NCBI RefSeq assembly: GCF_023055435.1
Contig: NW_025963890.1
Coordinates: 73,966,001-74,030,000 of the forward strand
Source of the DNA: Haliotis rufescens
Lineage: Eukaryota
Direction: 5' to 3'
DNA length: 64,000 bases
This document shows, in pieces, positions 169 to 45,960 of the stretch. The stretch's first letter is position 1. Each line of letters begins with the position of its first letter. The translations under genes were made by a program, and so were the position numbers. The notes beneath the pieces are model-generated. The model was given only the letters and a program-made list of their open reading frames with translations, did no database searches and was not told where the DNA came from.

Positions 169-524
169 CGGATTACAGAGGCGATGCGACATGAATGCAG
201 ATGAATAATGTGTTTGGTTTGCATGGATCACTCAGCTGCCATCACTGTGTAATGTCCTGTAAATTCTATTTCACAATGATATTGCTGAAGGATAATGACA
301 TTGGAACAGTATCATGATTTGATCTGCTTTTAACAAGATATTTTTCCATTACTAACTTTGAAAACTGAAATCATTGGTGCATATTTCATCAAGAGAAGTT
401 GGTTTCAGATCTCCAAAAGCCAGGATTAAAGATTCTGAAATGCTTGAAACAACAGGGAACACGAAACGAAAATCCACTGGAATGAGACAGTTACGCTACA
501 GTGGCTCCCTCAGGTAAACCCAGA

Positions 525-3500
525 ATGTATGGTCGACAAACACCTATCAGATCTACATCAACTGCAAAGTCTGTCTCCAAAGCAGATGGGCAATTATGTG
601 GATCTTCGTCAAAATCTTCAGCTACCAAGATACCTCAAGTGAAATATCCCCCACGGTCTAAGGAGGATAAACATGAACTATCACCTGTGAAAGACACAAA
701 ACACCCAACGGCTTCAAGTACCCATGCAAAGAAAGAGAGAAGTGAACTTAATTCAAAATTACGAGTGTCAAAACAAGATGACACACATCCCCTTTTCCCA
801 TCTGATAAGGTCAAACTACCCAAAGTAAAATATCCTCCCCGGACAAAGGAGGAAAAACGTGAACTATCATCTGTGAAAGACACAAAACATCCAGTAATAT
901 CAGCTTCAAGTTCTTGGTCAAAGAAAGAGGATAACCAAATCAGGCCAAAATTTGATCATTTAAATGTCTCTCCAATGATAGAAGATGAAAATAAACTAAC
1001 CACAGCACTATTGAAGGAGAAATGTACGACGACGAGGCATAGACGTGCTAATTCTAATCGTCTTGTTAAAGCAAATGTGTCTTTGCCGGGAAATAATAAT
1101 GACTGTTTACTAACCAGACAATCAAAGACGGCAGGGAAAGTTGAACATGAAGAAGAAACTGCTGGGGATTCAACAACAAAAGGGCAACCACAAAGAGAAT
1201 GTGGAGAAGAAGAAATGTTTTCAACCTCAGGAGTGGACCTGCCTTTTTCGTTTAAAAATAATTCTTTTCTACATAGTGTTTTCAAACCTGTTATTTCATT
1301 TTGCATCGAAAATACATCCAGGATCTCAGTTTTTGTCCGGAGAATTATTATTTATTGCATTTCAAAGTTAACTTTTCAGCATTTTTCAGACCAAATTCAA
1401 GGGAAATCCACTGATAAAATGAAATCATGTGACCATAAGGTTACTAAACTATCAACTACCAAGTCACAAATATGTCTTAAGCAGGACTCTTGGCAGTTGG
1501 CAAGAAGTTTTGAAAAAACAAAAATATGTCATTCACAGAAGACATTCACCAGACACAAACACTATAACCTTGACACATCAAAGATGGATGCATTGGTCAG
1601 TGGAATGGTAGACAGACATATCATTCGCAACTCTGACAATCCAACAAGGGACATCAAGTATTTTTTTGAAAATGAAGTTAAGATGGAGCAGAGGGACATC
1701 CAGCCGGCGTTGGTGCACTATAAATGGTTGAGAGAAAAGATTGTTGGACGATTAAACAGTGAGATGAACTTTGGGACATGGAAGGTTTGCAATGCAGGGT
1801 CGCATTTTGATGGCACTAAGGTAAGAATATGATCATTGCAATATAAGTTTTTGTTTCCTAAAGTTATTACAAATATTGTTTGTCGTACATTTGGGAATTC
1901 TAATATTTTTAACACGTGACGTAAGAATACTGACATAAAAAATTAGATTTATGAGTCACATCCTTCTACAGGTGGCTCGACCAAATGAAATGGACTGCAC
2001 AATGTTCCCAATTCTTCAGACCAAACTTGAGGCTGTGTTTGATGACACCTGCAAAGCTGGAGCCTGCAAGGTGAAGGTCATCGGGGATGTGGATGACCAC
2101 GAGGAGGATCTCCGGCTATTCCTTGATGGAGGCTTTGTTAACTCTAAAAAGTTCAGGAAATACGTCTTTGAGAAGCTTGAACGTGTTCTTGAGAGTGATA
2201 GAAAGTTAAAGGGTTCGTTGATTTATGTCACATCTTCAAATTCATAAATGTCTGTCAATATGATGTACGGTTGTATAAATCTATTATTTTTGAGACGCAA
2301 CATCAGTTTATCAGCATACAGTTTAACTTCACACATTTGAGGTTGAGGTCTTACTACCAGCAGGAAACACAAATTACTACAAATACGTTTTGTTTCAGAT
2401 GCTCGCAAGTTCAAAGATTCACAGTCTTTTGCAGTCAGGTATGAGGGTATTCCATCTGATGAAGGGATGAAAAGTATTGACATAGACTTTGTGCCATCCT
2501 TAAACATTAAACCCTGGCCTAGAAAGAACGTTTCCCGAGACATCACAGACATTCTCCCAGACCAACGGAAACGTACAGCTGCATCAATTAAGAAATATGG
2601 ATTCAATGCAACACCGAAGTTCTGGTATCAAGGTTAGTAATTAACGATGGAATATTTATGCTAGCTCTATATGTTGATGCATCAATTAAGAAAAATGAAT
2701 TCAATGCAACACCGAAGCTCTGGTATCAAGGTTAGTAATTAACGATGGAATATTTATGCTAGCTCTATGCATGTATGTTGATGCATCAATTAAGAAAAAT
2801 GGATTCAGTGCAACACCGAAGCTCTGGTATCAAGGTTAGTAATTAACGATTGAATATTTATGCTAGCTCTAAATGTTGATGCCCCTGAGAGGGGCATATA
2901 AACCTGATCTTAAATTGTTCATACAAGTTGTATACAGAAATGTGTAGACATGAAAAGACAAGACAGATAATCAACCCATCTCCTGCAGAAGATCTGCTAC
3001 TGAATTTCAAAGAGAGTTTGAGATTGCTGATAGCCCCAGTCATCCTATTTTCTTTGAAAAATAATTAGTAAGTCGATTTTGTCTTTGGAGAAATTTGGGG
3101 GGACCTCATGCACATGGGGGTACGTCTAAGGTGCCTCACCTCTCAATGAAGACTTGTGTCCTAATTATGTGTCTAGGTCAGCACCATTAGTGTGCTCATG
3201 GGTCTTGCTTAATCGGGGCTTTCACCTGCATTATGTTCACCAACTTTGGTAGAAATTCGGAATTGTTCAATATCAACTGTTGAACTGTTTTAAACAGCAA
3301 ATGTACATATCTGAAGAAATCCTTGAAAATATCTTTCTTTTGAAAAGCAAAAGATCCAGACCTCCTGTGGCAAGTTTCCTTTTCCTATGCAGAGAAGGCC
3401 ATCACTAAACATGCTGACAAGATTTCTTGGAAACCATCACTTAGAACATTGAAAAGAGTCTTGGAAATTGCAAAAGGCAACAGTGATTGTTGTGCCAAGG

Positions 3501-3847
3501 GTAACAGTCCAGAACTCGTGCAGATCCAGGAAGCAGTGAGATATGTCAAGGAGCATAATCCTAAACTGCGTTCCTCCCGACTGACGACATACCACATCAG
3601 AACACTCATGTGGTGGCAGCTGTATGATCTTACAGCAGGGGAGCACGTATGGAGGCAGGAAACAATGGCTGCAAGATTCCAGGACTGTCTCCGGAAGTTC
3701 CAGAAGATGATGACAGGGGAGATAGTGGTGCCACACTTCTTCCTACCCCAGATCAAGAACATCTTACCGTGGATACCAGAAGAGGAGAGGGTATTTCTCT
3801 ATGTCATAGCAAAGGCAACTGAGGTTGTGTTCACACAAAAAAAATGA
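525..3847 (+). CDS. cGAS-like receptor (cGLR, Mab-21 NTase), copy A; exons 525-1820, 1972-2212, 2399-2632, 3348-3847 (~756 aa from ATG 525; true 5' end uncertain)
   Basis: GT-AG junctions join in phases 0,1,1. They give GSHFDGTK|VARPNEMD (cGAS GSYYEHVKISAPNEFD), SIDIDFVPSL (third catalytic Asp), WQVSFSYAEK (cGAS WRLSFSHIEK), TTYHIRTLMW (cGAS SSYHVKT) and VPHFFLPQIKNIL. The N-terminus is Lys/Ser-rich. Region 1240-1390 looks intron-like but is open in frame. Confidence 0.88.
2581..2880 (+). repeat. Three tandem ~100-bp copies of the cGLR-A exon 3 end plus its splice donor
   Basis: GCATCAATTAAGAAA...CACCGAAG.TCTGGTATCAAG|GTTAGTAATTAACGAT occurs three times, with donors at 2633, 2731 and 2835. 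Confidence 0.9.
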
Positions 3848-5446: not shown

Positions 5447-5805
5447 TAGGTGAGGTGAGGTGAAATGGGGTTTGACGTCGCCTCCAAGATTATTGCACTT
5501 ATAAAGCGACGTGCATGCACGTGAATGTGTGTGTATGGCTGCTTGTACTAGTCCGGACTAATGCCGATTTATGGTGCTAGCACACTGAGATACCATGCCG
5601 CAGTTTAACATGAATACCCCACTCAGACACAGTATACTGACTCCGAGCCGACCAGTCCTTGTTTTAGTCCCTAAATGCTGAGCGCCAGACAGGGTAACAA
5701 CAAGTATCATCTTTGAAAGTCTTTTCGTATGACGCAGCTGGGGACTGAACCCGGGACCTTCCGCTCTCCGGGCGGACTCTCTACCACTGGACCACGGAGG
5801 CGGTC
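5447..5805 (-). mobile_element. tRNA-derived SINE, family B (V-SINE-like central domain)
   Basis: Minus strand: tRNA-like head (GTGGTCCAGTGG...GGTTCAGTCCC), then GTCATACGAAAAGACTTTCAAAGATGATACTTGTTG...GGCGCTCAGCATT, then a (CACCT)n tail. Related pieces at 13140-13220 and 50855-51140. Confidence 0.7.
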
Positions 5806-6902
5806 ACATAAAAAGTACCTACAATGACCCGGGTCTTTCCAACATTTAGACCCTAAACACGTTTAGCTGTTAAGCACAATCATAAACCTGTTTAGACCCT
5901 ACACGCCTCAGAATTCTGGGAAAAGGGGTGCACTTAGATACGTGTTTAGGATCTAAACACAGTTTAACAATGTATGCAAACTAACATAATCAGCATCTCA
6001 TAATACTTCAAGAACACAAAGTTCAGAAAGACAACTAAATCAAAGAACCTACAAAACCGAAACAATGTTCTTTATACCGCTTACCCAAGGGAAACACTAC
6101 CTTCCAATTCCACGAATTGTGTATGAAGTAGGGATGCAATTCTGACCTCCTTAAGATCCTAAGGACCAATATAGATCACAAAGAAAATGTGATTTCACAA
6201 GTCTTCAAATCTACATTATGCCAGTGCTCTATTCTTGATCTTCAGATAAGGATAAGGATTAAAAGGAGTAAACAGTTGTGACACGCTGATTGGATCCTAA
6301 TTAAAATAGTCTATTGCTTGATTAGATCTTCACAGGCAAAAGAGATGTAATACCCTTGATCTCTGCGAGATTTCTTTTAATGAAACTCTGGTGGTTTGGT
6401 TGGGAGGATTTAGACTTTGTCAAACAGAATTTGAATTTGCTGGCGGTCTGAGAGGGTTGATCTGCTCTCAGTTTTGACTGTTGAAGTGTCATGTTTTTTT
6501 TATGCATGTATCTTTTTAATCCTTATCCTTATCTGGCTTCATTACCCATGAACTTCATTGCATGTGTGCTATTTGTTATTCTTACTGTACATTGAAACGT
6601 CACTATATGCAATAAACCAGAAGTTGTTATCCATAAAGTTATGTGTCTTCTTACTTACTCGCCAACTTCTAGAATGCCAATCAAACAGTCAAATTGTATG
6701 GCCATTCGTGTCAATGTACATACGCGTTACTGGAACCGGCACGTCTCACACAACAGATATAATGGACTACATATTAGAACCTGTACAGTGGCTACATAAT
6801 AGGTATACAATACGCATATAGAGAACTTGTACTTCATCATACAACAGGTACAATATACAAATTACTGAAACTTTACACAGGTCATATGGCAGGTAGAAGA
6901 AA

Positions 6903-9900
6903 TTAGTTCATATGACCTATACATGGGTCATTCAAAAGCCATATACATGTGATAACTTGAATAAATAGGGACATAATCATTGAGAACAGTTGGACACTGG
7001 TTGAACCAGAAACTACAGAAGCTGCTGTTTCCACAATATGGAGTGGAGGTAAGGAGTGGTACACTTTGGAGTGGAACGGTGTCCCACGGGGAGGGCCTTT
7101 GCGCACATCTGAGAGTGTTCCATCTGCAAATTATGTCATCAAATATTAATACAAGTACATATTGGAAAATTGCATAGACTCTGATGGGTGCCAAAGAATA
7201 GAGGTACATATATGAAATGAATCTTGTTTTGGTTGTATCACCTGAAGAAGCTGTGACAACATTCTAAATGGCTGAAAATATCCACATAATAAATGGGGGA
7301 ACTTGGTGGCTTTACATCAATTTGACATACTTTTCGTTTCAGCTCATGTATCATGTCAACCAACATATGCTGGATATACTTCTGATGCACACTACAGAAC
7401 CATATACCCAAATGGTGCAAATCCATACATCTAACGAACAAAGGTATTCATTATAATGTTCACTAACCTTCTCTAGCTCTGATATAATCATGGAGAGTTC
7501 TTATTTGTTGCTGTCCTGTGTCAGTCGTCCTCCTTGGAAGCAGTGCCGTGAGTCTCTGGGAGGTTGGGGACATGCCAGGGATATATTCAAGCAGATGACA
7601 TAAGTTCCATTTTCGTATGACTTCTAAAATCTGCAGAAAAGGTTAAAACAACACCATGATAGGCGATGATAATGCAGTAAATTTCAAAGATTGACATATA
7701 CTTAGTCAAATTAAAAACTTCACATTTTTAAAAGTAATCCCATATATGATAAACAACGGACAAATGTATCAGAGTAGGTAATTTTTAATCATTAATGTCC
7801 AAAGAAGGATTTTAATTAACGGTGGTAACCATAATTTGTTCGAAGCACCTACGGTATTCGGTAATAACATCAACAGTTTAAATCATAAGTCCCAAGCACG
7901 AGAATCTGATGGCACACAAGTTCAGTAGCGTGTATGGCCATCATGTGCGTTGACAACTGCCACACAACGCCTCCGCATGGACCTTGTGATGCTTGTGAAC
8001 ACATGATTGGGAAGACGACGCCATTGTTGCTGCAAAATGGTGCCAAGATCTTGCAAATTCTATGGTTGGTTCTGGAGAGTGCGCAGATTTCTGCCAAGAG
8101 CATCCCAGAGGTGTTCGATGGGATTGAGGTCGGGAGACCTTGACGGCCAGTCCATGATGTTGACTCCCGCATTCTGAAGGAAATTCCTTGTCAAAATTGC
8201 TGTGTGGGGTCTGGCCTTGTCGTGTTGGAAGATCAAACCGGGTACATGTGCTGCCATAAAAGGCAGAAGTTCTGGTGCCAGTACCTGGTCGCGGTAAGCA
8301 GCAGCGTTGAGGTTGCCACGGATGACAAGAAGTCTGGAACGTGCATTGCCACAGAAAGCACCCCACACCATGACACTTCCGCCTCGAAATCTGTCAACTT
8401 CCTGTACACCACACTGGGCGTAACGTTCATGACGGCGCCTCCAAACCCTCGCCCTACCATCAGCAAATCGAAGATTAAATCGGGATTCATCACTGAAGAC
8501 GACTTTATTCCAATTCCTCTGAGTCCATCGTAAGTGTCGCTGTGCCCACAATTGACGTTGACGTCTGTGTAATTGAGTCAGAATCGGCCCGCAGTATGGC
8601 CGTCGTGCTTGAAGGTGAGCAGTTCTCAGACGGTTTCGAACAGTTTGCGCACCCAGTCTACCCCTAAACAGTTAATTTCTGGTTGATGTAGCCGTTAAAA
8701 ATCGGTTATGGAGTTGAAGTAAGACAATCTGACGATCCTCTGCACGTGACGTCACACGTGGTCGACCTGTCCGAGGGCGATCAGCGGTGGCACCCGTTTG
8801 CTGTAGACGCGTCTGTTAATCATAAACAGTCCGTCGACTACAACCCATCGTCCTTGCGACTTCAGCTATGGACGTTCCCGTCTGCAACATGCCGATGGCA
8901 CGTTCACGTTGCACATGTGAAAGGCGTGGCATGACAAATGGCCGTAAAGTCTTTTGTTTTCTTGTGTTTTTTGTGTTTTTTGAATGACTGCTAACAAGAA
9001 TAGCTGAAAACACGGGGGGGGGGGGGGGGGGGGGGGGGGTGCTGATCAGTGCTGATCGATTCACCTGCACAAAAACGGGTGTTATCTGAAGACAATACGT
9101 GGCCATTACTGTTTAAATACACAATAAGGGCCCACAATGATAACTGGTCAAAACGTTAAAATTTTAAGCTTGTGAAGTTTTTAATTTGGTTCAGGATATA
9201 TACATACATTTTATCAAGCTATGCGTGTGATTAACAAATGATAACTACTGATTATTGCTGTCACATCCGTTGAAGTGTAATTATAACATTGTTTCAGTTG
9301 ATGAACTTCGGTATATGCTCACCCCACAGTGTTGTAGTCCCTCTGTAAGCTGGTTCAACATTGGTTTGCTGCTGAACAGCACAAAGTGTTGGATACACCC
9401 TTTGACAAACTCAGCCCTAGTAGCCATTGTGACATGTGATGGGAGTGTGTCTATGGATGCCCTCCACTCACAGATCTTCAAGGCTTCGTGCAGTTCACCC
9501 TCGGTCTCAGCACTTTGCACCTGTCAGAAGAGCAATGTCTGGAGTCACTGAAAAATGCTGGTTACAGAACAGTTTTGATTTTAGCTGTAGTGTAAGAAAG
9601 TTTCAATTGACATGTTCAATCTAGTTCAGAGAATACCATATCTTACAAAGTTCACCTTAAGGAAAAGAATTTATGGATGTCAACTTACTCCTTCATCAGG
9701 TGGTCATTCAGTGGTCATCCACCTGATGAAGGAATAAGCACATACTTCGAAACGTTGTGTTCCTCACCATAAAGAAGTTGACATCCATACATTCTCTTCC
9801 TTATGTGTATGACTTCTAAATGCCTCTCTAAGACTTGAAAGTTCACCTTGCTTAAAGCATCTCTAATGTGTGGATATGGCACATGTTCTAGTGATGCACA

Positions 9901-12268
9901 TGTGTTGACTCCTAGGATGGCATCTGCTACAGGTCGTGCGAAGATAGCAGCACCTTGTCCTCCCTGAGCTATGATGGTGGCGAGCATGACCCCCAGAACC
10001 CGGAAGTAGCCTTGGTCTAATAGTGATTGGCTTGGACGGATACATAGGCCATGTTCATTGCCTGGTAACATAATTGAAAATGATTTGTAACAGTGCATTA
10101 TGAAAAGTGAGACTTATTTGTTTAATGATAAACTCTCAGGAAACAAAGGATCTGCTATTATTATTCAGTGATCTATGAAACTGAAATCAGTAAGTAAAAT
10201 TATGGCATGGTTAAATGAAAAGTTTTACATACGAAAGTCTCTTCTAAGAGAACAAACATAAGGGCATGGTGTATAGCATCTTCCCGAGGCAAGAGTGTAA
10301 ACTGGAAAAGTTTCCACCCTTGCCGAACCAGGCTGGAATTCCTCGCCTAGATCGTAGCGCCACCAGTGGCTATTAGGAGTTATGTCCCTTCTATGCCTCT
10401 CATATGGACCAATCAGATTCAACCTCTCGTATGACTTGTTTCAAACAAAATGGCGGCGCCCAGTCAAGACGATCTGGACGATAATCAAGAACTATATTGT
10501 GATAAGACGGTCGCTAAGAGCATCAAATCACGTGAACACCTTAATTAAAAACATGGAAAAAAATGGAAATATCAGTTGACAACGAGTTGCGCTGTACCTG
10601 CTTTGCAAATCCTAATCAAATGAAATCTGCATGACAGTTTAAGAAAAGGATTTCGATTTCGTTGCGTGAGTTTGATTAGGGTATGCATAGTCTGGTTAGT
10701 CCAGCCAATATCTAACTCCATAATACCAGCCTAGTTCGGGAAGGGTGGAAAGTGGACTATTATAGTCAGTTAATTCTCTTGGCTCGGGAAGATGGGTTTA
10801 TAGCAGTTGATTGTGAATAAGATACATATATATCTTTCTGTTTTCTCGATTAACCCAAGTGACGATTGCTCCATTACTTACCATGTACCATTTTGCTGTC
10901 AGTGATGATGACATCCAATAACAGATTCAGATATTCCTTCCTTGAAGAATCGGCGTCAACAACAGCCTCCCGATGCCCCTTACCATCCTCAAACACCACC
11001 TACAAAACATAAATGGCGCCAATGCTGTAATAAATATGTCATTTAAAATAACATAAGTGTCTTCTGGTTTGGATTCCTGCTTTTAAAAAATTGTTCTTGC
11101 CTCTTAAACATAAATACTACTCACCATCAAACTATTTGCAGAGTTGGCAACTGCGACAGTGCAGAAGAAGTTAATGCTGCTGTCCCACACGTCCTGTCTA
11201 TCGACCATGATGATTACAGAGGGATATCTCACACATCTCTCAACATGATCCTGAAGTGCTATGGCTTGTACCCTCTCAAAGGGGTCTTCTCTGATAACAG
11301 ATCAGGATGTTGTTTTTAAAAAGATTGTTCAAGAGTCATATTTTTTTAGTAACTATTATACGTTTATATTTTACTTCTTGAATAATAGTGAAAGTGAGAT
11401 ATATCAAATCATTGTTTTGGAGATTGTACATCTATAACAGAAACCATGATCCTACATACGTATCATGTTGGGGATTATAGTGATGAGATTTTTTAAATCC
11501 GTTCCTTGAAGGCTCATCGTTGATTTCCATTGCTGAAGGCCTGGTGTAGCTTTGTTTTTCTAATAACTGTCCCTGAGGATCTTCACCAGACACGATCTCT
11601 TGGTCTAATGACTGGTTCTCAGGGGAATTTTCATCACTGTACTGGTTTTCTTGTGGCTCAAATTGATCCGTAACACTTGTATCAATAAGTCCCATGGGTG
11701 TTGCTTCGGGAAGAAAATCCATTCCAATGTATTCTTGGTCAGCTCCCTCTTCACTGAGACTCATCATGTGACTCTGTTGCTTTTGATATAAATAATTGCT
11801 TGTCTGACGATCAAACGAAGCATTTTGACTTCTAAGGTCGACAAGTGCCCGAGAATTCGTGTGTGCACACCTTTGCAGGTGCTGTGGTGGAGTTAGAACT
11901 AGTCTCTTCAACCGTGTATCAAATTTAACGGAAAATGAGCTGATGATACTTAGGTCATGACGATGTTTCGCTGATCTGGTGGAGGTTATCACATGTCTTG
12001 AATGACAAGCGTGATCACCGGGACTCATACCAGCATCGCTACAGCTGGAACAAATCGTCTTCATTGCTTTTGGTCGGTAGGTGGTCTGCCTCAACCCAAG
12101 CCTGCATTTGACCAGGTCTTTGAAGCTTGCACCACAGTGGGGACATGGTTTCATGGCGACAACGACTGTACAGTCCCAGCCTCCTCTCCGGGAGAAGACC
12201 TTTGAGGTGTTACTTCTCCTCCTGAAGACAGGTACCCCTGAACGACACCAAGTACAGCTTATACGCAT
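6903..12268 (-). CDS. Divergent G2E3-like HECT-domain protein; exons 12268-11460, 11290-11125, 10999-10882, 10061-9847, 9520-9323, 7630-7468, 7123-6903 (629 aa from ATG 12268)
   Basis: Six GT-AG introns with matching phases (2,0,1,0,0,1) give a stop-free 1890-nt ORF. HECT-like motifs: IMVDRQDVWDSS; VVFED...EAVVDADSSRKEY (cf. AVDxGGPxREF); YFRVLGVMLATIIAQGGQG; LEHVPYPHIRDAL; MLNQLTEGLQHCGILEVIRK. The family call is by eye, not by HMM. Confidence 0.7.
7699..9197 (-). mobile_element. Tc1/mariner DNA transposon (DD34E-type transposase, inactivated) in an intron of the HECT-like gene
   Basis: Transposase starts at ATG 8932 (MPRLSHVQRERAIGML) and contains GRPRVTS, FSDESRF, VMVWG, FQHDKARPH and WPSRSPDLNPIEHLWD. 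In-frame stops (e.g. 8816-8818). Imperfect TIRs CAAATTAAAAACTTCAC / GTGAAGTTTTTAATTTG with TA flanks. Confidence 0.9.
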
Positions 12269-21900: not shown

Positions 21901-22708
21901 ACGAAATATTGATTGACTGCTGTTGGCGGAACCTTTAAACGTGTTTGTACCTGGAAATATAAGGTGAAAAAATGCTGGTATTTCAGGTGAGCGTTGTATG
22001 TTTGTTTGTTATTGTACACATTAATCAGCAACATAGTAATTGGGTTGAATTCTGAATTGTCTGAAGTTATATTGCTGAAATGATTCCTTCTTTTAACTGA
22101 CCCGATCGTTATATTCTTGTCAACAGATCATGTTAGTCTCCTTTAGCGACAATCAATAGGGTGCTTGGGATGTATACTTACCTGGAGCAAAGTTTTAACA
22201 TTAGTTGGACGCACTTTATATTTAATAGTATGTCAGCCATATCACAGTGCCCGGTCACCCTTGTCTTCTCGTATGACAAGTAATAGTGTGCAGGGAACCT
22301 AATGAACCTGAGATCATAGATTGGTTAAACTTGCGATTTGAGTTTTGTAGGAATACATGTTAGGTATTACCCAAACCTATTTTTAGTGGCAGGTGACTGG
22401 CTTTATCTGTATGCTATTTCATAGAAGCGGAAATTGTGCTCCACTCAATTGTGCGGGTCGGTTGTGCAAGTGAGTCGGGGTTTCCGCTTGGGTTGGCAGT
22501 GTCAGGGCGAGGTAATTTAGCCAAGAGTTTTAAACTTTAACTATCAGATATGTTGTGATAAGCAGCAGACATCAACATCCAATCATCTGTATGCTACTTA
22601 CTATCTATTACCTGGTGTTATCATTTAGCTGTCAAGTTATAATGAGCCATTCAATGTTTATAAACTGTGATATTATTTATCAGTACACCACGGGGAGTTC
22701 TGGCCAAC

Positions 22709-25700
22709 ATGAGTGAGGTCTGCCCCCACTGCGGGGAGGGCTTTCAACGCCTTGCGTCTCACGAGTGGAGGTGCAAGGAGAAGGGAACAGCCGTCCCTGC
22801 TTCCTCCCGCCCCCAGTCTCGTTCATCTGGGAGGTCCAGTACAAAATCAGCCTCAGCAAGGAATAGTGCTGGGCGATATACCACACCATCAGCCTCAGTA
22901 GGGAAGAGTGCTGAGAGATCTACCACACCATCAGTCTCAGTAGGGAAGAGTGCTGAGCGATCTACCACACCATCAGCCTCAGTGGGGAATAGTGCTGAGA
23001 GATCTACCACACCATCAGTCTCAGTAGGGAAGAGTGCTGAGCGATCTACCACACCATCAGCCTCAGTGGGGAATAGTGCTGGGCGATATACTACACCATC
23101 AGCCTCAGTGGGGAAGAGTGCTAAGAGATCTACCAACTCATCAGCCTCAGCAGGGAAGAATGCTGAGAGATCTACCACCTCATCAGCCTCAGCGGGGAAG
23201 AGTGCTGAGAGATCTACCACCTCATCAGCCTCAGCAGGGAAGAGTGCTGGGCGATCAACCACATCATCAGCCTCAGCAGGGAAGAGTGCTGGGGGATCTA
23301 CCACACCATCAGCCTCAGCGGGGAAGAGTGCTGAGAGATCTACCACGCCATCAGCCTCAGCGGGGAAAAGTGCTGGGCGATCAACCACATCATCAGCCTC
23401 AGCGGGGAAGAGTGCTGGGGGATCTACCACACCATCAGCCTCAGCGGGGAAGAGTGCTGAGAGATCTACCACCTCATCAGCCTCAGCGGGGAAGAGTGCT
23501 GAGAGATCAACCACCTCATCAGCCTCAGCAGGGAAGAGTGCTGGGGGATCTACCACACCATCAACTTCAGCAGGTAACGGTGCTTGGCGATCTACCACGC
23601 CATCAGCCTCAGCGGGGAACATCGCTGGGCGATCTACCACACCATCAGCCTCAGCGGGGAACAGTGTTGGGCAATCTACCACACCATCAGCCTCAGCAGG
23701 TAAAGGTGCAGGTGCTGGGCCATCTACCACGCCATCAGCCTCAGCTGGGGGGAATAGTGCTGGGCGAACTACCACATCATCAGCCTCAGCGGGTAACACT
23801 GCAGGTGCAAGGAATGGCTACGTTTGTTCCAGAGATGCAGAAACAGAACAAACACAGATATGGGAAACTACTATTCAAACAACGCGCCCAAAGGACATAC
23901 CACAAAAGGACATCCTGGACACGTTGGAGATGGATGCATTGGTCAAAGAGATGGTAGAGAGAAACATCATTTGGAACTCTGACGATCCAAAAAAGGACAT
24001 CAAAAGGTTTTTTGAAAATGAAGTTAAGATGGAGCAGAGGGACATCCAGCCGGCGTTAGTGCACTTTAAGTGGTTGAGGGAAAAGATTGTTGGACGATTA
24101 AACAGTGAGATGAACTTTGGGACATGGAAGGTTTGCAATGCAGGGTCGCATTTCGATGGAACTAAGGTAAGAATATGATCATTGCAATATAAGGTTTTGT
24201 TTCCTAAAGTTATTACAAATCTTGTTTGTCATACATTTGGGAATTCTAATATTTTTAACACGTGACGTAAGAACACTGACATAAAAAAATAGATTTATGA
24301 GTCACATCCTTCTCCAGGTGGCTCGACCAAATGAAATGGACTGCACAATGTTCCCAATTCTTCAGACCAAACTTGAGGCTGTGTTTGATGACACCTGCGA
24401 AGCTGGAACCTGCAAGGTGAAGGTCGTCGGTGTCGTGGATGACCACGAAAAGGATCTCGAGCTATTCCTTGATGGAGGCTATGTTAACTTTAAAAAGTTC
24501 AGGAAATACGTCTTTGAGAAACTTGAACGTGTTCTTGAGACTGATAGAAAGTTAAAGGGTTCGTTGATTTATGTTACATCTTCAAGTTCATAAATGTCTG
24601 TCAGTATGATGGACGGTTGTATAAATCTATTGTTTACGAGACGCAACATCAATTTATAAACTTGACACATTTGAGGCTGAGATCTCACTACAAGCAGGAA
24701 ACACATATCACTACAGACACGTTTTGTTACAGATGCTCGCAAGTTCAAAGATTCACAGTCTTTTGCAGTCAGGTATGAGGGTATTGCATCTGAGGAAGGG
24801 ATGAAAAGTATTGACATTGACTTTGTGCCATCCTTAAACATTAAACCCTGGCCTAGAAAGAACGTTTCCCGGGACATTGAAGACATCCTCCCGGACAAAG
24901 CTAAAGCTGCATCCATTAAGGAAAACGGATTCAATGTAACACCGAAGCAACAGAATCAAGGTAAGTATTTATGTGCTGAAACATATTTATGCTTCACTAA
25001 ACGTTCAAGGGAGGCGACTGTCTTTCCGTCGAGAGAAAGTACACTTTTTCAGGTGCGTCATTATGTGCTGACGTCATGACGCTGTTCAAATTAGCTCCCC
25101 ATGATCTAACGTATCATTGGAAAATCGTTCTTTCATTACTGTCAAGCAAGGTAGTGCATTGTGAAATAGTTCAAACGTGTCGAATTACTGGACATTATTC
25201 CCAAGGAAGAAATATAGCAAGATGATATGAGCTATCTCTTACGCCACAGGGTTATTCCATGCCACAGCAGCCACAAAGTTGCCCAAGGCGGGTGTTGGTG
25301 ACATTGGAATGTTATGACTGTGTCTGAACATAGGCATGACAGGTTATTGAAGAGCTTCATGACACCATGTAAACCTGTTGCTCAGCGTAGGGCATTTAGC
25401 CAAAATACTGCAGTCAAACAAAACGACCGCTGTTACTCTACCTCTGCCTCTGCCTTGTTCGTCCCATGGCGATATCATGCCCATATCACGCCCCTCGCCT
25501 TCGATTCACGTCGGTTGCGATATCATTAGTGAGTGAGTGAGTATGGGTTTACGCCGCTTTTAGCAATATTCCAGCAATATCACAGCGAGGGACACCAGAA
25601 ATGGGCTTCACACATTGTACCCATGTCGGGAATCGAACCCGGGTCTTTGGCATGAAGAGCGAACGCCTTAACCACTAGGCTACCCGACCGCCCGCGATAT

Positions 25701-26939
25701 CATTAAGTGTAACCAACTCGGTAAGCACATTGTTTCATGACCTGCAGTTGCATGATTTGATTTAACTGTGTCCAATAAATATAACAACTTATTTATTATT
25801 GATAATCATATATTAACGGATAATAACTTATAAATTATAGTGGTGTTTTTATCATGTTTAAAATGTATACTTTTTCTCTTAACAATAGACTACAGGCAAT
25901 TAGGTGAAACAGAACCGGCAATTAGCCCTGTTCATGGATTTTCAATTTATGGTCCCGTGTATTGCGGATTTGATATTAAACCCATCTCCAATAAACATAA
26001 GATTATTCAGCATCTAAGAAAACTGAAAAGGTTGGCTGTGCCCATGTATAGTCCTCCTGCTTTAAGTTGATGGTTCAGGGCAAAACTATACTTTATTACA
26101 CTGCGCAAACATTATTCCCTTTCTTTCTAATAGGAACCCTCCTACGGATAAAAGCCATTACTGAATGCCTGAAACTATAGTTTGCGAGGCAGAGTTGCGT
26201 CCCTTAGGCGTGCCCTAAACCAATGATCGAAGATTCGAATAACAGATTCGCCCTGGTAGTGTTTCTAGATCAGCGCCATAACTGGGCTCATGGGTCCTGC
26301 TTATTTTGGGCTTTCTTCTGCATCATGTTCACTTACTTAGACAGATATTAGGAATTGTTCATGGTCAACTGTTGAACTGTTTGTTTGGAACAGCAAATGT
26401 ACATATCCGATGAATTCCTTGAAACATTTTTTTTAAAAGGAAAATATCCAGACCTCCAGTGGCAAGTTTCCTTTTCCTATGCAGAGAAGGCCATCACCAA
26501 ACATGCTGACAAGATTTCTTGGAAACCGTCACTTAGAACATTGAAAAGAGTCTTGGAAATTGCAAACGGCAACAGTGATTGTTGTGCCAAGGGCAAGAGT
26601 CCAGAACTCGTGCAGATCCAGGAAGCAGTGAGATATGTCAAGGAGCATAATCCTAAACTGCGTTCCTCCCGACTGACGACATACCACATCAGAACACTTA
26701 TGTGGTGGCAGCTGTATGATCTTACAGCAGGGGAGCACGTTTGGAGGCAGGAAACAATGGCTGCAAGATTTCAGGACTGTCTCCGGAAGTTCCAGAAAAT
26801 GATGACAGGGGAGATAGTGGTGCCACACTTCTTCCTACCCCAGATCAAGAACATCTTACCGAGGATGCACAAGGAGGAGAGGGCATTTCTCTATGTCATA
26901 GCAAAGGCAACTGAGGTTGTGTTCACCAAAAAACAATGA
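22709..26939 (+). CDS. cGLR copy B; exons 22709-24166, 24318-24558, 24733-24960, 26440-26939 (808 aa): N-terminal C2HC finger + 14-aa S/T repeats + Mab-21 NTase
   Basis: MSEVCPHCGEGFQRLASHEWRC, then (SAGRSTTPSASAGK)n, then the same spliced NTase motifs as copy A. An acceptor lies at 22683, with a candidate upstream UTR donor GAG|GTAATT at 22512. Confidence 0.9.
22847..23800 (+). repeat. Coding 42-bp (14-aa) tandem repeat, ~23 units
   Basis: Unit approx. AGTGCTGGGCGATCTACCACACCATCAGCCTCAGCGGGGAAG. Confidence 0.92.
25528..25693 (-). mobile_element. SINE family A insertion present only in cGLR-B intron 3
   Basis: TSD GCGATATCATTA. The empty site is present in cGLR-C at ~33536-33548. Confidence 0.88.
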
Positions 26940-27139
26940 CGCTCAAACTTGACATTTCAAATCATTGGTAGGCCAAGGATATTTATTTGTCAATTCAACT
27001 TCAGAGTGAGTGAGTGGGGATGAGGGGTTGGCAGACGAGGAAATGGAATGGCATGGCATTGATATGTATGTGTTGTTGTTATATACCATCTCCCTGTATA
27101 TCATGTGAGCGTTAATATTGATACGCAACTTGTGTGATC

Positions 27140-27245
27140 ACTGGGAAAGTAGGAATAATACAGAGGGAGAAAATCAGCGAGAACAGTTGGACACTGGTTA
27201 CACCAGAAACTACAAAAGCTGCTGTTTCCACAAAATGGAGTGAAG
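27140..27245 (-). pseudogene. Remnant of the HECT-like gene's terminal exon (second copy ~35570-35675)
   Basis: DNA similar to ~6975-7045. It translates as LHFVETAAFVVSGVTSVQLFSLI versus LHIVETAASVVSGSTSVQLFSMI in the intact gene, with stops upstream in that frame. Confidence 0.6.
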
Positions 27246-29710: not shown

Positions 29711-30606
29711 TGAACGATCTGAAGACACAATGGATGAAGTAAATTGATTTTTATTTATCCTCTCTGTGTGGGTGATGAACAGGGGAATTTCCACGAAATA
29801 TTGATTGACTGCTGTTGGCGGAACCATTAAACGTGTTTGTACCTGGAAATGTAAGGTGAAACAACTGCTGGCATTTTAGGTGAGCGTTGTATGTTGTTTG
29901 TTATTGTACACATTAATCAGCAACATAGTAATTGGGTTGAATTCTGAATTGTCTGAAGTTATATTGCTGAAATGATTCCTTCTTTTAACTGACCCGATCG
30001 TTATATTCTTGTCAACAGATCATGTTAGTCTCCTTTAGCGACAATCAATAGGGTGCTTGGGATGTATACTTACCTGGAGCATAGTTCTAACATTAGTTGG
30101 ACGCACTTTATATTTATTAGTATGTCAGCCATATCACAGAGCCTGGTCACCCTTGTCTTCTCGTATGACAAGTAATAGTGTGCAGGGAACCTGATGAACC
30201 TGGGTCAGAGATCATAGATTGGTTAAACTTGCGATTTGAGTTTTGTAGGAATACATGTTAGGTATTACCAAAACCTATTTTTAGTGGCAAGTGACTGGCT
30301 ATATCTGTATGCTATTTCATAGAAGCGGAAATTTTGCTCCACTCCATTGTGCGGGTCGGTTGTGCAAGTGAGTCGGGGTTTCCGCTGGGGTTGGCAGTGT
30401 CAGGGCAAGGTAATTTAGCCAAGAGTTTAAAATTTTAACTATCAGATATGTTGTGATAAGCAGCAGACATCAACATCCAATCATCTGTATGCTACTTACT
30501 ATCTATTACCTGGTGTTATCATTTAGCTGTCAAGTTATAATGAGCCATTCAATGTTTATAAACTGTGATATTATTTATCAGTACACCACGGGGAGTTCTG
30601 GCCAAC

Positions 30607-35375: not shown

Positions 35376-38300
35376 CGCTCAAACTTGACATTCTTGGTAG
35401 GCCAAGGATATTTATTTGTCAATTCAACTTCAGAGTGAGTGAGTTGGGATGAGGGGTTGGCAGACGAGGAAATGGAATGGCATGGCATTGATATGTATGT
35501 GTTGTTGTTATATACCATCTCCCTGTATATCATGTGAGCGTTAATATTGATACGCTGCTTGTGTGATCACTGGGAAAGTAGGAATAAAACAGAGGGAGAA
35601 AATCAGCGAGAACAGTTGGACACTGGTTACACCAGAAACTACAAAAGCTGCTGTTTCCACAAAATGGAGTGAAGAACAGTGAATTCTGTGTTGTTATCAG
35701 TCCAGATCATGCATGTATTTCGACTCGTCCTTTGGTATGAAGCAGCCAGGGAAACGAACCATTACCCTTAGGCAGTGTAGGACGACTGATGCCAAAGGAC
35801 AATGGCCAAATTGCAACACATGAAGCATGGATTGGAATGATCTCAATGTCGTGGCTGGCGCCTGGCGACAGGCGTTTTGTGTGTGGAAATGAGACACTCT
35901 CAGGCTCCTGTCGGCCAACAGGGGAGATAACTACTGGATATTAAACCAACTTCAGACAGGGTGGACAGGGATGCATAACTAGAAGAACTTGCTGGACATA
36001 CTAAAACATTCAGGTAATCCTGGGAATGATATTAGAAATCCCTGTCACAAAGATTAGCCATGACCCTAAATACAATCAAGGAAGGACATTGTTTTGTTTG
36101 CAGACAGTATTTGAGGCAAGTGGAAATAGTGTAGCAGTGACGTTTTCACGTTATATTTGGTTATACAATAAAAAAAAAAATTGTTCGTGTTATACAGTTT
36201 TGTTGGCAACAGTATTATTCGTGGTATTCTCTTTGCCTGATCTTTGTCTGGCCCAGGTTAATGAATATGTATAGCACGTGAATTTCATGTTAGTGAGAAT
36301 CTTAGTTATAATAAAGAGTATTTTAATTGGCTGATGTGATCGTCTGGTCCAATAAAATTGTACCTCGTGGTTTCGTACGGCTGGTTAAGTGAAATTGTAC
36401 CTCGTGGTTTCGTACGGCTGGTTCAATGAAATTGCATTTTGAGAGGTAAACGTGTGAGGTTGAACACAAGAGTGGTCACCGGGTATAACGTGTTAGTTTG
36501 CAGTCTTACAGACACGAAGAGTTGCTTTGTCTTATAGACGGGGTATTAAAAAGGCTTCACGTCTCGTAAAAATAAACGGATTCACACCCTCAGAGCAAGT
36601 CGTGATTTGCTCGGCGCTTTCCAACTGTTACATTAATACCATGTGGATTCTCAAAAACCTGAAGTATTTGCTTGAAGTTTTGCAATCTCAGTATAGAATC
36701 AGATTCAATTCTGTCAAAACATTTGAGTTTTCAACTTTGTACACACCATCCCCCATGACAAACCTAAGAAAAAGCTTCATTCCTGGGGACACTTGGTACT
36801 AACGCGGTGACCATACATATTGTTTCATAGATATACGAGTTTCAGGGCATTTGCCAAAAATGAAAGCAGATTTCATCTGAAGTGGAATCAACAAACATGT
36901 TACCTCACGTAACAGTATCATGGCTGCATTGAGTGAGTGAGTGAGTTGGGTTTCACGCCGCTTTTAACAGTATTCCAGTCATATCACGGCGTGTCAGCTT
37001 AATGTGGGAGGAAAGCCCGAAGTGGTGCAGGTCTCAGACGTTTACCACTTCGGTGAAAACCACGAGCACGGGTATGGTGCTGAAAAACCTAGGAACATAA
37101 TCGGGGCGAACCAGATTCGAACCAATAATCATAGGTTTCTGGCGTGCCCAAGGGACGCAACTCTGCACAGCGAATCGCGGCGCCTTAGACGACTGGGCCA
37201 CCCCTGCTCCCCATGGCTGCATTGTCTTTGTTTGACAACACGTAGGCTATAGTCCGTTTTCTTATGACATTAACATACAGCATATATTGTGTAATCCTAT
37301 TACCCACTGTCATCTTGTGCACCATTATTGTGTTGCGTGAACGTTGTTGCAATATTTGCAGTAGTTATTGAATACATTCTGGTTACACGTATGGTGTCAT
37401 ATGTTCTCGTTATTACTTCAATGTCATATGCAAAGTATAACGAGAAATTTTTGACCAACTGGTTTGTTTGTTTGTTTGTTGTTTAACGCCGCACTCAGCA
37501 ATATTCCATCGATATTGTAAATAATCGAGTTTGGACCAGACAATCCGGTCATTGACAGACATCATGAACATCGATCCACACACTCGGCATACGATGACAT
37601 GCATGAACCAAGTCAGCGAGCCTGACCACCCCATCTCGTAATTGTACTGCAGTCCTAAATAATAGATTAAGGACTATGGGATTTACATTTCATTTCATAA
37701 GCAAGCTAAATATATAGACAGTATTTTCATAATTATATGCGTTATATTTAAGATGTTTCTTAAAATTTAAAATATTAACATGTAAATTTTGTGGTTGATA
37801 TTTCATAGTTTCACCATAAGCTGGACAAATAAACGTGAAATGAAATTCTTCTATACCGATTTAAGATAATGGACATATTCTCAGTGATTTTTTGTCACCT
37901 ACCTTCGTTTATTTTGAAACGTAGTAGCCCTGTTCTTTTTGTATCTAATATTTTTCGAAATTTGAAGTCAACGATAACATTAAGGTATTTCTCGGGTGCA
38001 AGCAACGTCTTACATTCCTTATAAAAAAAACTATACCTTGGACTACCTTTGAGATCCGATCTCTAATTCTGATTTTTTTTAAATGTATTGTACGTTTCTT
38101 AAATATATTAATGAAATATACGGGATTTCCAACAGTCTGTGGGGACACGGGTGGCCAAGGCGTCTAAGGCGCCGCGATTCGCTGTGCAGCGTTGCGTCCC
38201 TTGGGCACGCTAGAAACCTATGCTTGTGGGTTCGAATCCCGGTTCGCCCCGATTATGTTTCTAGGTTTGTCAGCACCATACCAGTGCTCATGGGTTTCAT

Positions 38301-45100: not shown

Positions 45101-45960
45101 ACAGTGTCTTCCATCGTTGACACTGCATCTCTGTCCATCCTGTTTGAGTTTGTTCTGTGTTGCCAACTAGTTGTCACCCTTTTTGGGGAACAGAAGCCTA
45201 GGGGTTTGGTATGGACACACAGAGATCGTTTATCGTCTAACGACATTCCTGAACGACCTCTGCCATCACATTTCTTGTGGTTATTCAAATCCACAAACCA
45301 CTTGTTGCAATCGGGACACTGCTCTTTGTCATCGGACGAGCTACGACTAACTGATTGGCGTCTGCCATCACATTTCTTGTGCTTATTCAAATCCACAAAC
45401 CACTTCTTGCAATCGGGACACTGCAGTTTGTCATCAGACGAGCAAGGACTAACTGATTGGCGTCTGCCATCACATTTCTTGTGGTTATTCAAATCCACAA
45501 ACCACTTGTTGCAATCGGGACACTGCTCTTTGTCATCGGACGAGCTACGACTAACTGATTGGCGTCTGCCATCACATTTCTTGTGCTTATTCAAATCCAC
45601 AAACCACTTCTTGCAATCGGGACACTGCAGTTTGTCATCGGACGAGTAAGGACTAACTGATTGGCGTCTGCCATCACATTTCTTGTGCTTATTCAAATCC
45701 ACAAACCACTTGTTGCAATTGGGACACTGCTCTTTGTCATCGGACGAGCTACGACTAACTGATTGGCGTCTGCCATCACATTTCTTGTGCTTATTCAAAT
45801 CCACAAACCACTTCTTGCAATCGGAACACTGCAGTTTGTCATCAGACGAGCAAGGACTAACTGATTGGCCTCTGCCATCACATTTCTTGTGGTTATTCAA
45901 ATCCACAAACCACTTGTTGCAATCGGGACACTGCTGGTTTGGGTTCTTTTTCTTCGGCAT
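39140..45960 (-). CDS. cGLR copy D; exons 45960-44881, 41452-41227, 40645-40409, 39651-39140 (684 aa): seven C2HC zinc fingers + Mab-21 NTase
   Basis: Same intron positions and phases as A-C. GSYYDKTK|VSRPNEMD, GSPSFGI (cGAS GSPAVTL), DIDVDIVPAL, WQMSFSLAEK, TTYHIRTLMW, VPHFFLP. Confidence 0.9.
39817..40345 (+). repeat. 24-26-bp minisatellite (~21 units) in cGLR-D intron 3
   Basis: Unit GAGACATCATGCAAATGAACATAT(GT/GA). Confidence 0.95.
42314..42960 (+). repeat. 42-bp minisatellite (~15 units) in cGLR-D intron 1
   Basis: Unit GGGAGTCAGGTTACTCTTTTGGTCAAGWACCTATTGACTATT. Confidence 0.95.
43395..44796 (-). mobile_element. Decayed Tc1 transposon in cGLR-D intron 1
   Basis: TIRs TACTGAACCGCAAAAGAAACGTCAC / GTGACGTTTCTTTTGCGGTTCAGTA with TA flanks. 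Fragmented transposase: MPRLTRNQRHQALGRL, VWSGI, FQHDNARA, WPALSPHLNHI. Confidence 0.88.
45268..45930 (-). repeat. Coding 102-bp (34-aa) repeat x7 encoding C-x2-C-x9-H-x2-C fingers
   Basis: CPDC(N/K)KWFVDLN(N/K)HKKC with alternating linkers ending DDKLQ / DDKEQ. Confidence 0.92.

What the first reader, a model, noticed from the sequence alone, without database searches (positions are those of the whole stretch)
6903..12268. Intact but apparently catalytically altered HECT-like gene embedded in the cGLR cluster
Seen: a 7-exon stop-free ORF not visible as a unit in the ORF track, tail-to-tail with cGLR-A and head-to-head with cGLR-B. By-eye alignment places VVSGSTSVQLF at the HECT P-x-A-x-T-C motif, i.e. 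Ser (AGT) in place of the catalytic Cys (TGT). The N-lobe DxGGP motif is also altered (DADSS), and the C-terminus (IGHMN) lacks the usual -4 Phe. Inference: a pseudo-ligase or decoy, or a non-canonical ligase, co-located with the cGLRs. The alignment is tentative.
Basis: partly seen in the sequence, partly recalled or inferred. Interest (0 to 1): 0.7.

Follow-up and report, generated by a model that had tools for sequence, protein, structure and literature searches.

The report
Abalone headless HECT ligase, UTR-born tail
A spliced abalone gene keeps the first half of a ubiquitin-ligase domain but has lost the catalytic half, ending instead in a greasy tail that matches the reverse strand of neighbouring immune-sensor genes, so it likely acts as a non-catalytic decoy or regulator rather than an enzyme.

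Summary
The gene is real. Seven GT-AG coding exons give 629 aa, identical to NCBI LOC124133246 (Haliotis rufescens). It is spliced in related species and has a 95%-identical H. cracherodii orthologue. The Cys-to-Ser claim is wrong. VVSGS falls at the C-lobe FxTG position, about 30 residues before the catalytic motif, and is not HECT-derived. HECT homology stops at about P583. From there the frame reads the antisense of a segment 88% identical to the cGLR-B/C 3' flank. The catalytic core (PxAxTC, beta-sheet, -4 Phe) is absent; three intact paralogues lie 30-76 kb upstream. The N-lobe folds as HECT (pLDDT>90; Z 16-18). Exons 4-5 are conserved (1 change in 138 aa against 28 in 491 elsewhere). The new tail has a transmembrane-like helix. 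Best reading: a pseudo-ligase without a C-lobe core, likely an E2/ubiquitin-binding decoy or scaffold (about 0.5). Main rival: a transcribed, decaying duplicate (0.25). Side finding: the cluster's cGLRs and HECT ligases share an N-terminal C-x2-C-x9-H-x2/3-C finger whose strong genome matches all lie in this cluster. No functional link is shown.

The parts
11460..12268 (-). Coding exon 1 (aa 1-270): two degenerate C2HC-type zinc fingers (aa 42-88) and a disordered acidic linker. Preceded by a splice acceptor after 12279, so a non-coding 5' exon lies further upstream (not located). The start may be M1 or M39; the paralogues' Met aligns near M39.
12005..12145 (-). Degenerate double zinc finger. 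Finger 1, CPHC..F..L.KC, has lost the His and last Cys positions; finger 2 keeps C-x2-C-x9-H-x-C-HSR. Homologous to the paralogues' and cGLRs' C-x2-C-x9-H-x2/3-C fingers.
   Evidence: cysteines 42, 45, 55, 73, 76, 88 kept in H. cracherodii
11125..11290 (-). Coding exon 2, start of the HECT N-lobe
10882..10999 (-). Coding exon 3, acidic loop: E336, D340, E347 kept; GGP changed to DSS (DADSS at 10957-10943)
9847..10061 (-). Coding exon 4, N-lobe; most conserved part
9323..9520 (-). Coding exon 5, N-lobe (inferred to hold part of the E2-binding subdomain)
7468..7630 (-). Coding exon 6, end of N-lobe, hinge and first C-lobe helices
7049..7123 (-). HECT-derived part of exon 7 (aa 557 to about 583), homologous to the start of the paralogues' last exon
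   Evidence: ungapped shuffle p<=1e-4 against 4 of 4 paralogues; BLASTP alignments end at 583-587 for 8 of the 10 close paralogue hits with that reach
6903..7048 (-). Non-HECT tail (aa about 583-629). Holds VVSGSTSVQLF (S599 at 6998-6996) and VITC. 6948-7048 is the antisense of the cGLR-B/C 3' flank (88% over 89 nt).
6933..6989 (-). Hydrophobic helix aa 602-620 (Kyte-Doolittle 19-mer mean 2.24), candidate tail anchor or degron
27133..27245 (+). cGLR-B 3' flank, 218 nt past its stop; matches the tail DNA. Lies in a cGLR-type contig of depth 85 in run X17.
35586..35674 (+). cGLR-C 3' flank, second match to the tail DNA
7696..9199 (-). Tc1/mariner-type element in intron 5 (38-nt terminal inverted repeats; DDE_3 and HTH_Tnp_Tc3_2 hits). 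It is spliced out or absent in the contigs that join exons 5 and 6.
10277..10794 (.). High-copy inverted-repeat element (MITE-like) in intron 3; a smaller one at 9658-9803 in intron 4
486..3847 (+). cGLR-A (tail-to-tail neighbour; Mab-21_C exon ends at 3847)
22664..26939 (+). cGLR-B with N-terminal C2HC finger (head-to-head neighbour, a LINE between them)

Best explanation
This is a spliced, conserved copy of the cluster's zinc-finger-HECT ligases that has lost the catalytic core of its C-lobe and ends in a hydrophobic tail matching the antisense of the cGLR 3' flank, and it likely works as a non-catalytic HECT N-lobe that would bind E2~ubiquitin or ubiquitin without transferring it, possibly at a membrane. 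SHOWN: gene structure and splicing; paralogy; N-lobe fold in the model; absence of the catalytic motif and -4 Phe; DNA match of the tail; low change rate in exons 4-5. INFERRED: a rearrangement broke the last exon at the LxP motif and joined it to cGLR-A's 3' flank read backwards; the protein is made and stable; the tail is an anchor; the N-lobe still binds E2; it damps the three active paralogues that would act in the cGLR pathway.
For: Five HECT-region introns sit at the same positions and phases as in paralogue 2. A profile of 66 intact homologues matches aa 281-544 at E 1e-58 and stops there. A C-lobe-core profile finds only the three paralogues in six frames of 204 kb. AF2: pLDDT>90 over about 281-520, 70-80 to 560, under 50 for most of 603-629, no C-lobe strands; the control paralogue has three strands at 443-467 with pLDDT>=90. 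VIA-align: 30 of 50 rows end by residue 528 (best Z 18.4, rmsd 3.2, 234 aligned); in the control 45 of 50 reach the C-terminal end (best Z 26.0, 343 aligned). HECT homology and cGLR-flank homology end at the same point (P583 / base 7048). The junction is bridged in organisms B, C and D and present in H. cracherodii. Selection after truncation: exons 4-5 show 1 aa change in 138 against 28 in 491 elsewhere (Fisher p about 0.02); exon 4 differs at 2/217 nt against 21/533 in the 3' transcribed flank in run X18 (p=0.03); the tail shows 4 synonymous to 1 replacement against organism D (p=0.012). No indel in exons 6-7 in 4 runs. The N-lobe carries the E2 site and the C-lobe the Cys (PMC6457168, passages). 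Tail hydrophobicity is reached by 2.2% of 1520 random frame ends.
Against: No binding or protein-level data. 7 of 23 conserved N-lobe columns are lost (GGP, R346, Y384, P402, G461), against 0-2 in four intact homologues, which were part of the set that defined conservation. The HECT part of exons 6-7 shows 2 synonymous to 5 replacement changes (p=0.54). The tail has 3 aa changes in 47 in H. cracherodii, the same rate as exon 1. The counts are small, come from contigs of depth 5-12, and the regions were chosen after seeing the data. Hydrophobic tails from non-coding DNA are often degraded through BAG6 (10.1101/2022.07.20.500724, abstract). The zinc fingers that link paralogues and cGLRs are degenerate here. 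Contigs of this gene are shallow (5-12) beside the cGLR-type contig (85 in X17), though contig depth is a poor measure. Timing is unresolved: dS to paralogues is saturated and dN is 0.45, while tail against flank is only 12% diverged.
Confidence: 0.5

Rival explanations
1. A transcribed duplicate in early decay: the truncation killed the ligase, the hydrophobic tail sends the product to degradation, and the open frame has simply not yet been hit.
For: Loss of 7 of 23 conserved N-lobe columns and degenerate fingers; near-neutral pattern in aa 503-582; transposon insertions in three introns; shallow contigs; BAG6 route (10.1101/2022.07.20.500724, abstract). The tail is only 12% from the cGLR flank, about three times the 4% flank divergence to organisms C and D.
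Against: Exons 4-5 are several-fold more conserved than exon 1 or the 3' flank. The frame is open and 629 aa long in H. cracherodii, with two one-residue indels in exon 1. Indels are common in the 3' flank (24-25 gap letters) but none was listed in exons 6-7.
Confidence: 0.25
2. A non-catalytic protein with a role unrelated to E2 capture or to cGLRs: the N-lobe is kept as a folded scaffold, and its place in the cluster reflects descent by local duplication only.
For: Long branch (1.17 changes per site against about 0.3 between H. asinina and H. rufescens paralogues); degenerate fingers; no data link it to immunity. Human G2E3 has a HECT domain described as inactive (PMC12511632, one passage).
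Against: The conserved block (aa 365-502) is where the E2-binding subdomain is expected (inference from the fold; residue mapping not available). The shared finger and interleaved genes suggest common function for the paralogues.
Confidence: 0.12
3. The mRNA is the active agent: its last exon is complementary to the cGLR-B/C 3' UTR and its long 3' region runs towards cGLR-A, so it regulates cGLR transcripts as a natural antisense RNA.
For: 89 nt at 88% complementarity, predicted duplex -123 kcal/mol; both kinds of contig occur in runs X15 and X17; contigs cover 5800-6900.
Against: Does not explain conservation of exons 4-5. A strong duplex follows from homology alone. Contigs are unstranded. 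The segment has no unusual structure (z -0.3 to -0.8).
Confidence: 0.07
4. A non-canonical active ligase that uses C616 (VITC) or S599 as nucleophile in a remodelled C-lobe.
For: MAFFT puts T615-C616 on the family TC column and G596 on the FxTG Gly. The acidic residues matching Rsp5 D495 and E502 (D340, E347) are kept (PMC3738095 passages; mapping by spacing). VITC is unchanged in H. cracherodii and shows only synonymous changes in C and D. Two Rsp5 rows in VIA-align run past Cys777.
Against: Tail against C-lobe profile p=0.42; hhalign probability 0.9%, and to the N-lobe; tail DNA against paralogue exon 7 p=0.42, control exon 5 p=0.001; 13 residues follow C616 against 35 in paralogues; no sheet, no -4 Phe; the tail DNA matches a 3' flank.
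Confidence: 0.04
5. Origin reversed: the tail is the older sequence and the cGLR-B/C flank pieces are remnants copied from it when the cGLR unit duplicated. The function question is unchanged.
For: The antisense frame is also open for 43 codons in B and C, and the one gap against the tail is 12 nt, in frame. cGLR-A's homology to B stops 67 nt after its stop and resumes only here, 3 kb on.
Against: The match ends exactly where HECT homology ends, as expected of a fusion point and a coincidence otherwise. In B and C the segment lies in a contig continuous with the cGLR flank.
Confidence: 0.15

Closest known systems
Haliotis zinc-finger-HECT paralogues annotated 'G2/M phase-specific E3 ubiquitin-protein ligase-like' (XP_048256495.1, XP_048256493.1, XP_071119431.1; H. 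rubra and H. asinina relatives)
   Same: 44-48% identity over the HECT region, five shared intron positions and phases, N-terminal double finger, same cluster
   Different: They keep DTGGP, FVTG, LPSA(A/S)TCSN and the -4 Phe and pass the Pfam cut-off (58-62 bits); this gene has none of these and lies on the opposite strand
HECT E3 ligases (PF00632; solved NEDD4-family, Rsp5, HUWE1, UBR5, E6AP, AREL1)
   Same: N-lobe fold: Foldseek E 2e-8, VIA Z 16-18 over about 230 residues
   Different: No catalytic C-lobe core; Pfam 20.4 bits against cut-off 23.9, profile positions 10-183 of 306 only
Human G2E3 (PHD/RING + HECT described as catalytically inactive; PMC12511632 passage, PMC6457168 table passage)
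   Same: Precedent for a non-catalytic HECT; NCBI gives the paralogues its name
   Different: G2E3 ligates through RING-like domains; no RING or PHD was found here. Orthology to G2E3 was not tested.
Hydrophobic C-terminal tails from non-coding DNA, triaged by BAG6 (10.1101/2022.07.20.500724, abstract and outline)
   Same: Tail from T-rich non-coding strand, hydrophobic, at the C-terminus
   Different: Here it is fixed across several species and attached to a conserved folded domain; its fate is untested
C17orf80 N-terminal CCHC finger, Cys-X2-Cys-X9-His-X3-Cys (PMC10445727, passages)
   Same: Same spacing as the cGLR-B/C finger
   Different: Only spacing was compared; homology was not tested; the HECT paralogues have X2 before the last Cys

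Membership tests
HECT E3 ligase (PF00632) | N-lobe fold | tested here: met
   AF2 pLDDT>90 over about 281-520; Foldseek and VIA hits to solved HECTs; family HMM E 1e-58
HECT E3 ligase (PF00632) | Pfam gathering score | tested here: not met
   20.4 and 19.9 bits against 23.9 for the protein and its orthologue
HECT E3 ligase (PF00632) | C-lobe core with catalytic Cys in P-x-A-x-T-C | tested here: not met
   No profile match in the tail or in six frames nearby; no strands in the model; motif present in 64 of 66 homologues
HECT E3 ligase (PF00632) | -4 phenylalanine (needed for ligation, PMC3738095) | tested here: not met
   C-terminus IGHMN; paralogues end ...F-S/T-T-A
HECT E3 ligase (PF00632) | N-lobe acidic loop E-x3-D-x-G-G-x2-R-E | tested here: inconclusive
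   E336, D340, E347 kept; GGP changed to DSS; R346 is K (R in H. cracherodii)
HECT E3 ligase (PF00632) | E2 binding and ubiquitin thioester formation | not testable with these tools
   Needs biochemistry
G2E3 (human type) | N-terminal PHD/RING domains | tested here: not met
   No such Pfam hit at E<=1
Haliotis cluster zinc-finger-HECT paralogue family | Shared intron positions and HECT sequence | tested here: met
   5 of 5 HECT-region introns match paralogue 2; groups with these proteins at 100/99 support, position within the group unresolved
Haliotis cluster zinc-finger-HECT paralogue family | Intact N-terminal C-x2-C-x9-H-x2-C fingers | tested here: not met
   Full pattern absent, remnants only
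Tail-anchored membrane protein | Single hydrophobic helix near the C-terminus | tested here: inconclusive
   KD 2.24 at 602-620, nine residues from the end; helix at pLDDT<50; no dedicated membrane predictor was run

The most novel reading that the evidence does not exclude
The locus is a co-evolving immune cassette. cGLR sensors and HECT ligases carry the same cluster-private C2HC zinc finger, which sends them to the same ligand or to each other. This gene is the cassette's built-in brake: a membrane-anchored HECT N-lobe that soaks up E2~ubiquitin, with an anchor newly born from the antisense strand of the cGLR 3' UTR.
Probability: 0.15. Interest if true: 0.75.

Novelty: new variant of a known kind. 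Interest (0 to 1): 0.5.

Why it matters
Inactive HECT domains are rare in print (G2E3 is the usual example). I found no description of a conserved, expressed HECT lacking its C-lobe core (searches), nor of HECT genes clustered with cGLRs or sharing a finger with them. The library lacks most subscription papers. If the decoy reading holds, it gives a natural tool for separating E2 binding from catalysis and a traceable case of a membrane tail born from antisense UTR. The shared finger offers a concrete, testable route by which ubiquitin could control invertebrate cGLRs in a farmed animal with viral disease. If the gene is decaying, it is an ordinary casualty of a fast-turning immune cluster.

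Tried and rejected
First exon guess for exons 4 and 6 gave stops; corrected from the splice sites. Pfam on single exons gave no HECT hit; only the whole protein did, below cut-off. phmmer of the protein against PDB sequences: 0 hits at E<=1. Transposon-cargo idea: rejected; the exon-4 search finds 4 loci, all in this cluster (a lower bound), and no inverted repeats frame the gene. Tail as a dispersed repeat: only 3 matches in the genome (this does not prove rarity). Displaced C-lobe exon in another frame or nearby: none in 204 kb. Orthologue in H. rubra or H. asinina: none seen; the searches are length- and cluster-limited, so absence is not shown. Conserved RNA structure in the shared 89 nt: none. 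No run on record as RNA held the stretch; I relied on spliced joins in 'RNA?' contigs. No complex prediction was sent: the canonical E2 hits in the genome were exon pieces, and the one long single-frame hit scored low and was not examined; a HECT-E2 pass would also mostly reflect solved structures. ESM Atlas with the finger gave only unnamed clusters. Earlier scan notes: nothing near, by words or by sequence; 8 of 14 genome notes shown. The tree (19 rows) leaves the gene's position among Haliotis paralogues open and warns of long branches. PMC2837046 and PMC11353290 (passages) say nothing on truncated or cGLR-linked HECTs. Supplements were not read.
Full report
OBSERVATION. The seven coding exons are real. 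With GT-AG ends they give 1890 nt and 629 aa without a stop. The protein is identical to NCBI LOC124133246 of Haliotis rufescens and has a 629-aa, 95%-identical orthologue in H. cracherodii. Logan contigs of runs guessed to be RNA are spliced. One 2243-nt contig of organism D holds exons 1, 4, 6 and 7 at offsets that leave exactly the room for exons 2, 3 and 5. The intron-6 joint appears in 2 of 4 runs, and the exon 5-6 join shows as a loose end in 3 of 4. Contigs in 3 of 4 runs stop at the acceptor after 12279 and carry extra letters, so a 5' non-coding exon exists upstream.

WHAT IT IS. Exon 4 finds three paralogues 30-76 kb upstream on the other strand. They are complete HECT proteins with DTGGP, FVTG, LPSA(A/S)TCSN and a -4 Phe and pass the Pfam cut-off. 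The five introns in the HECT region match paralogue 2 in position and phase. The duplication is old or the copy evolved fast: dS is saturated, dN is 0.45, and the stem is 1.17 changes per site; its place among the Haliotis paralogues is unresolved.

THE CYS-TO-SER CLAIM FAILS. In the paralogue alignment VVSGS sits on FVTGC, about 30 residues before the catalytic Cys. A profile of 66 intact homologues matches aa 281-544 (E 1e-58) and no further. A profile of the C-lobe core scores the paralogue at 90 bits, does not report this protein, and in six frames of 204 kb finds only the three paralogues. Residues 556-586 are still homologous to the start of the paralogues' last exon (p<=1e-4 for 4 of 4; the distal 22 residues p 0.001-0.08); residues 587-629 are not (p 0.83-1.0). 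MAFFT forces T615-C616 onto the family TC column. That needs an 11-residue deletion and keeps 3 of 15 conserved core columns. The tail scores as chance against the profile (p=0.42; controls 144 and 112 bits) and at DNA level (p=0.42; control p=0.001); hhalign gives 0.9%. AlphaFold2, fed that alignment, builds a confident N-lobe, weaker first C-lobe helices and a low-confidence helical tail with no strands. The control paralogue has the full sheet. Foldseek's listed hits are all HECT ligases. In VIA-align 30 of 50 rows end by residue 528; 20 run on into the low-confidence part, two of them past Rsp5 Cys777 by range, with no residue mapping given. In the control 45 of 50 rows reach the C-terminal end.

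WHERE THE TAIL COMES FROM. Bases 6960-7048 are 88% identical to 27157-27245 and 35586-35674, about 220 nt past the stops of cGLR-B and -C, on the cGLR strand; a weaker match runs to 6948. A genome search gives only these three places. In run X17 the segment lies in a 751-nt contig of depth 85 whose flanks are cGLR-B/C type, consistent with a 3' UTR. The match ends at base 7048, codon P583, where BLASTP alignments to most paralogues also end. The simplest history (inferred) is a rearrangement that broke the last exon there and let the frame run into cGLR-A's 3' flank backwards. The junction is bridged in organisms B, C and D and present in H. cracherodii, so it is fixed and not an assembly error. 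The reverse direction of copying is not excluded. One puzzle remains: the tail is 12% from the flank, similar to cGLR-A against B (dS 0.10), while the N-lobe is far more diverged from its paralogues. Most of that divergence, perhaps including DADSS, would then predate the break, unless gene conversion refreshed the tail.

IS IT UNDER SELECTION? Against H. cracherodii, exons 4-5 have 1 change in 138 aa and the rest 28 in 491 (p about 0.02). In run X18 exon 4 differs at 2 of 217 nt and the 3' transcribed flank at 21 of 533 (p=0.03). Exons 6-7 against organism D give 6 synonymous and 6 replacement changes (p=0.044): 4 to 1 in the tail (p=0.012) but 2 to 5 in the HECT-derived part (p=0.54). The tail has 3 changes in 47 aa in H. 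cracherodii, no better than exon 1. Seven of 23 conserved N-lobe columns are lost. So the N-lobe core is constrained, the C-lobe remnant is not, and the tail is uncertain. The counts are small and the regions were chosen after the fact.

MECHANISM. The N-lobe carries the E2 site and the C-lobe the catalytic Cys (PMC6457168, passages); the -4 Phe and an N-lobe acidic loop are needed for ligation (PMC3738095, passages). A protein with a conserved N-lobe and no C-lobe core cannot take ubiquitin from E2 in the usual way, but could still bind E2~ubiquitin or ubiquitin. I commit to a decoy or scaffold that would damp the active paralogues (about 0.5). The tail has a 19-residue hydrophobic stretch (KD 2.24) nine residues from the end, matched by 2.2% of 1520 random frame ends. 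It may be an anchor, or a degron of the kind described for non-coding tails (10.1101/2022.07.20.500724, abstract). Rivals: decaying duplicate 0.25, unrelated scaffold 0.12, antisense RNA 0.07, active ligase 0.04.

LINK TO cGLRs. Beyond adjacency, the HECT paralogues and 4 of the 5 cGLRs located in 204 kb (B, C, D and one about 87 kb upstream) begin with the same C-x2-C-x9-H-x2/3-C finger. An exon 9 kb upstream carries one cGLR-type and two HECT-type fingers. All 8 genome matches at E<1e-4 to the paralogue's fingers lie in this cluster (a lower bound). The other Mab-21 loci found (3 on other contigs) were not examined for it. In this gene the fingers are degenerate. This points to domain sharing within the cluster; it does not show a pathway.

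KNOWN AND NEW. It works like a pseudo-enzyme paralogue in an immune cluster. It is a HECT-family derivative but fails the defining tests for an active HECT ligase. G2E3 is a precedent for an inactive HECT (PMC12511632, one passage). Eight searches found no account of this gene, of a HECT without its C-lobe, or of cGLR-HECT clusters; an abalone immune survey mentions cGAS annotations only (PMC11103948, passages). Verdict: new variant of a known kind, interest 0.5.

Noticed in passing
G000:C112:73.875-74.012 Mb (window 22721, 30619, 45318-45930; L005, L006/L007, L009, L012, L013): cGLRs and HECT ligases of the cluster share an N-terminal C-x2-C-x9-H-x2/3-C zinc finger (1-8 copies per gene); all 8 strong genome matches lie in the cluster. 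It may deserve its own follow-up.
   Followed up: partly
L012, G000:C112:73956710-73957285 (+): A 191-aa open exon with one cGLR-type finger followed by two HECT-type fingers and a splice donor; possibly the first coding exon of cGLR-A, suggesting exon exchange between the two families. Its splice partner was not established.
   Followed up: partly
L014/L013, about 86.5-91.3 kb upstream of the window start (-): A fifth, more divergent cGLR with four identical finger repeats and GS...DEMD motifs
   Followed up: partly
window:5800-6900: Covered by contigs in the RNA-like runs, so the 3' region of this gene or of cGLR-A is long and the two convergent transcripts may overlap; strand unknown.
   Followed up: no
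proteins P0024 and P0046: 2 of 66 homologues with an otherwise complete C-lobe have Ser or Arg in place of the catalytic Cys, so true Cys-substituted members exist elsewhere in the family (sources unnamed).
   Followed up: no
protein P0016; L009: A predicted protein matching paralogue 3 has DTGRP for DTGGP and stops after the exon-5 equivalent, although a C-lobe exon is present at that locus.
   Followed up: no
window:13318-17970 (-): LINE-like element (coiled-coil ORF1, endonuclease, reverse transcriptase) broken by stops, lying between this gene and cGLR-B
   Followed up: no
L007-L010, about 45-53 kb and 21-29 kb upstream of the window start (+): Two related broken LTR-retroelement-like copies with an envelope-like ORF (judged by eye from translations), each just downstream of a HECT paralogue; described only.
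   Followed up: no
window:22664-24178 and 30562-32235 (+): cGLR-B and -C carry long Ser/Thr/Ala-rich 13-residue repeats between the finger and the nucleotidyltransferase domain
   Followed up: no
window:54231-54986 (-): Leucine-rich-repeat exon (F-box/LRR-like Pfam hits)
   Followed up: no
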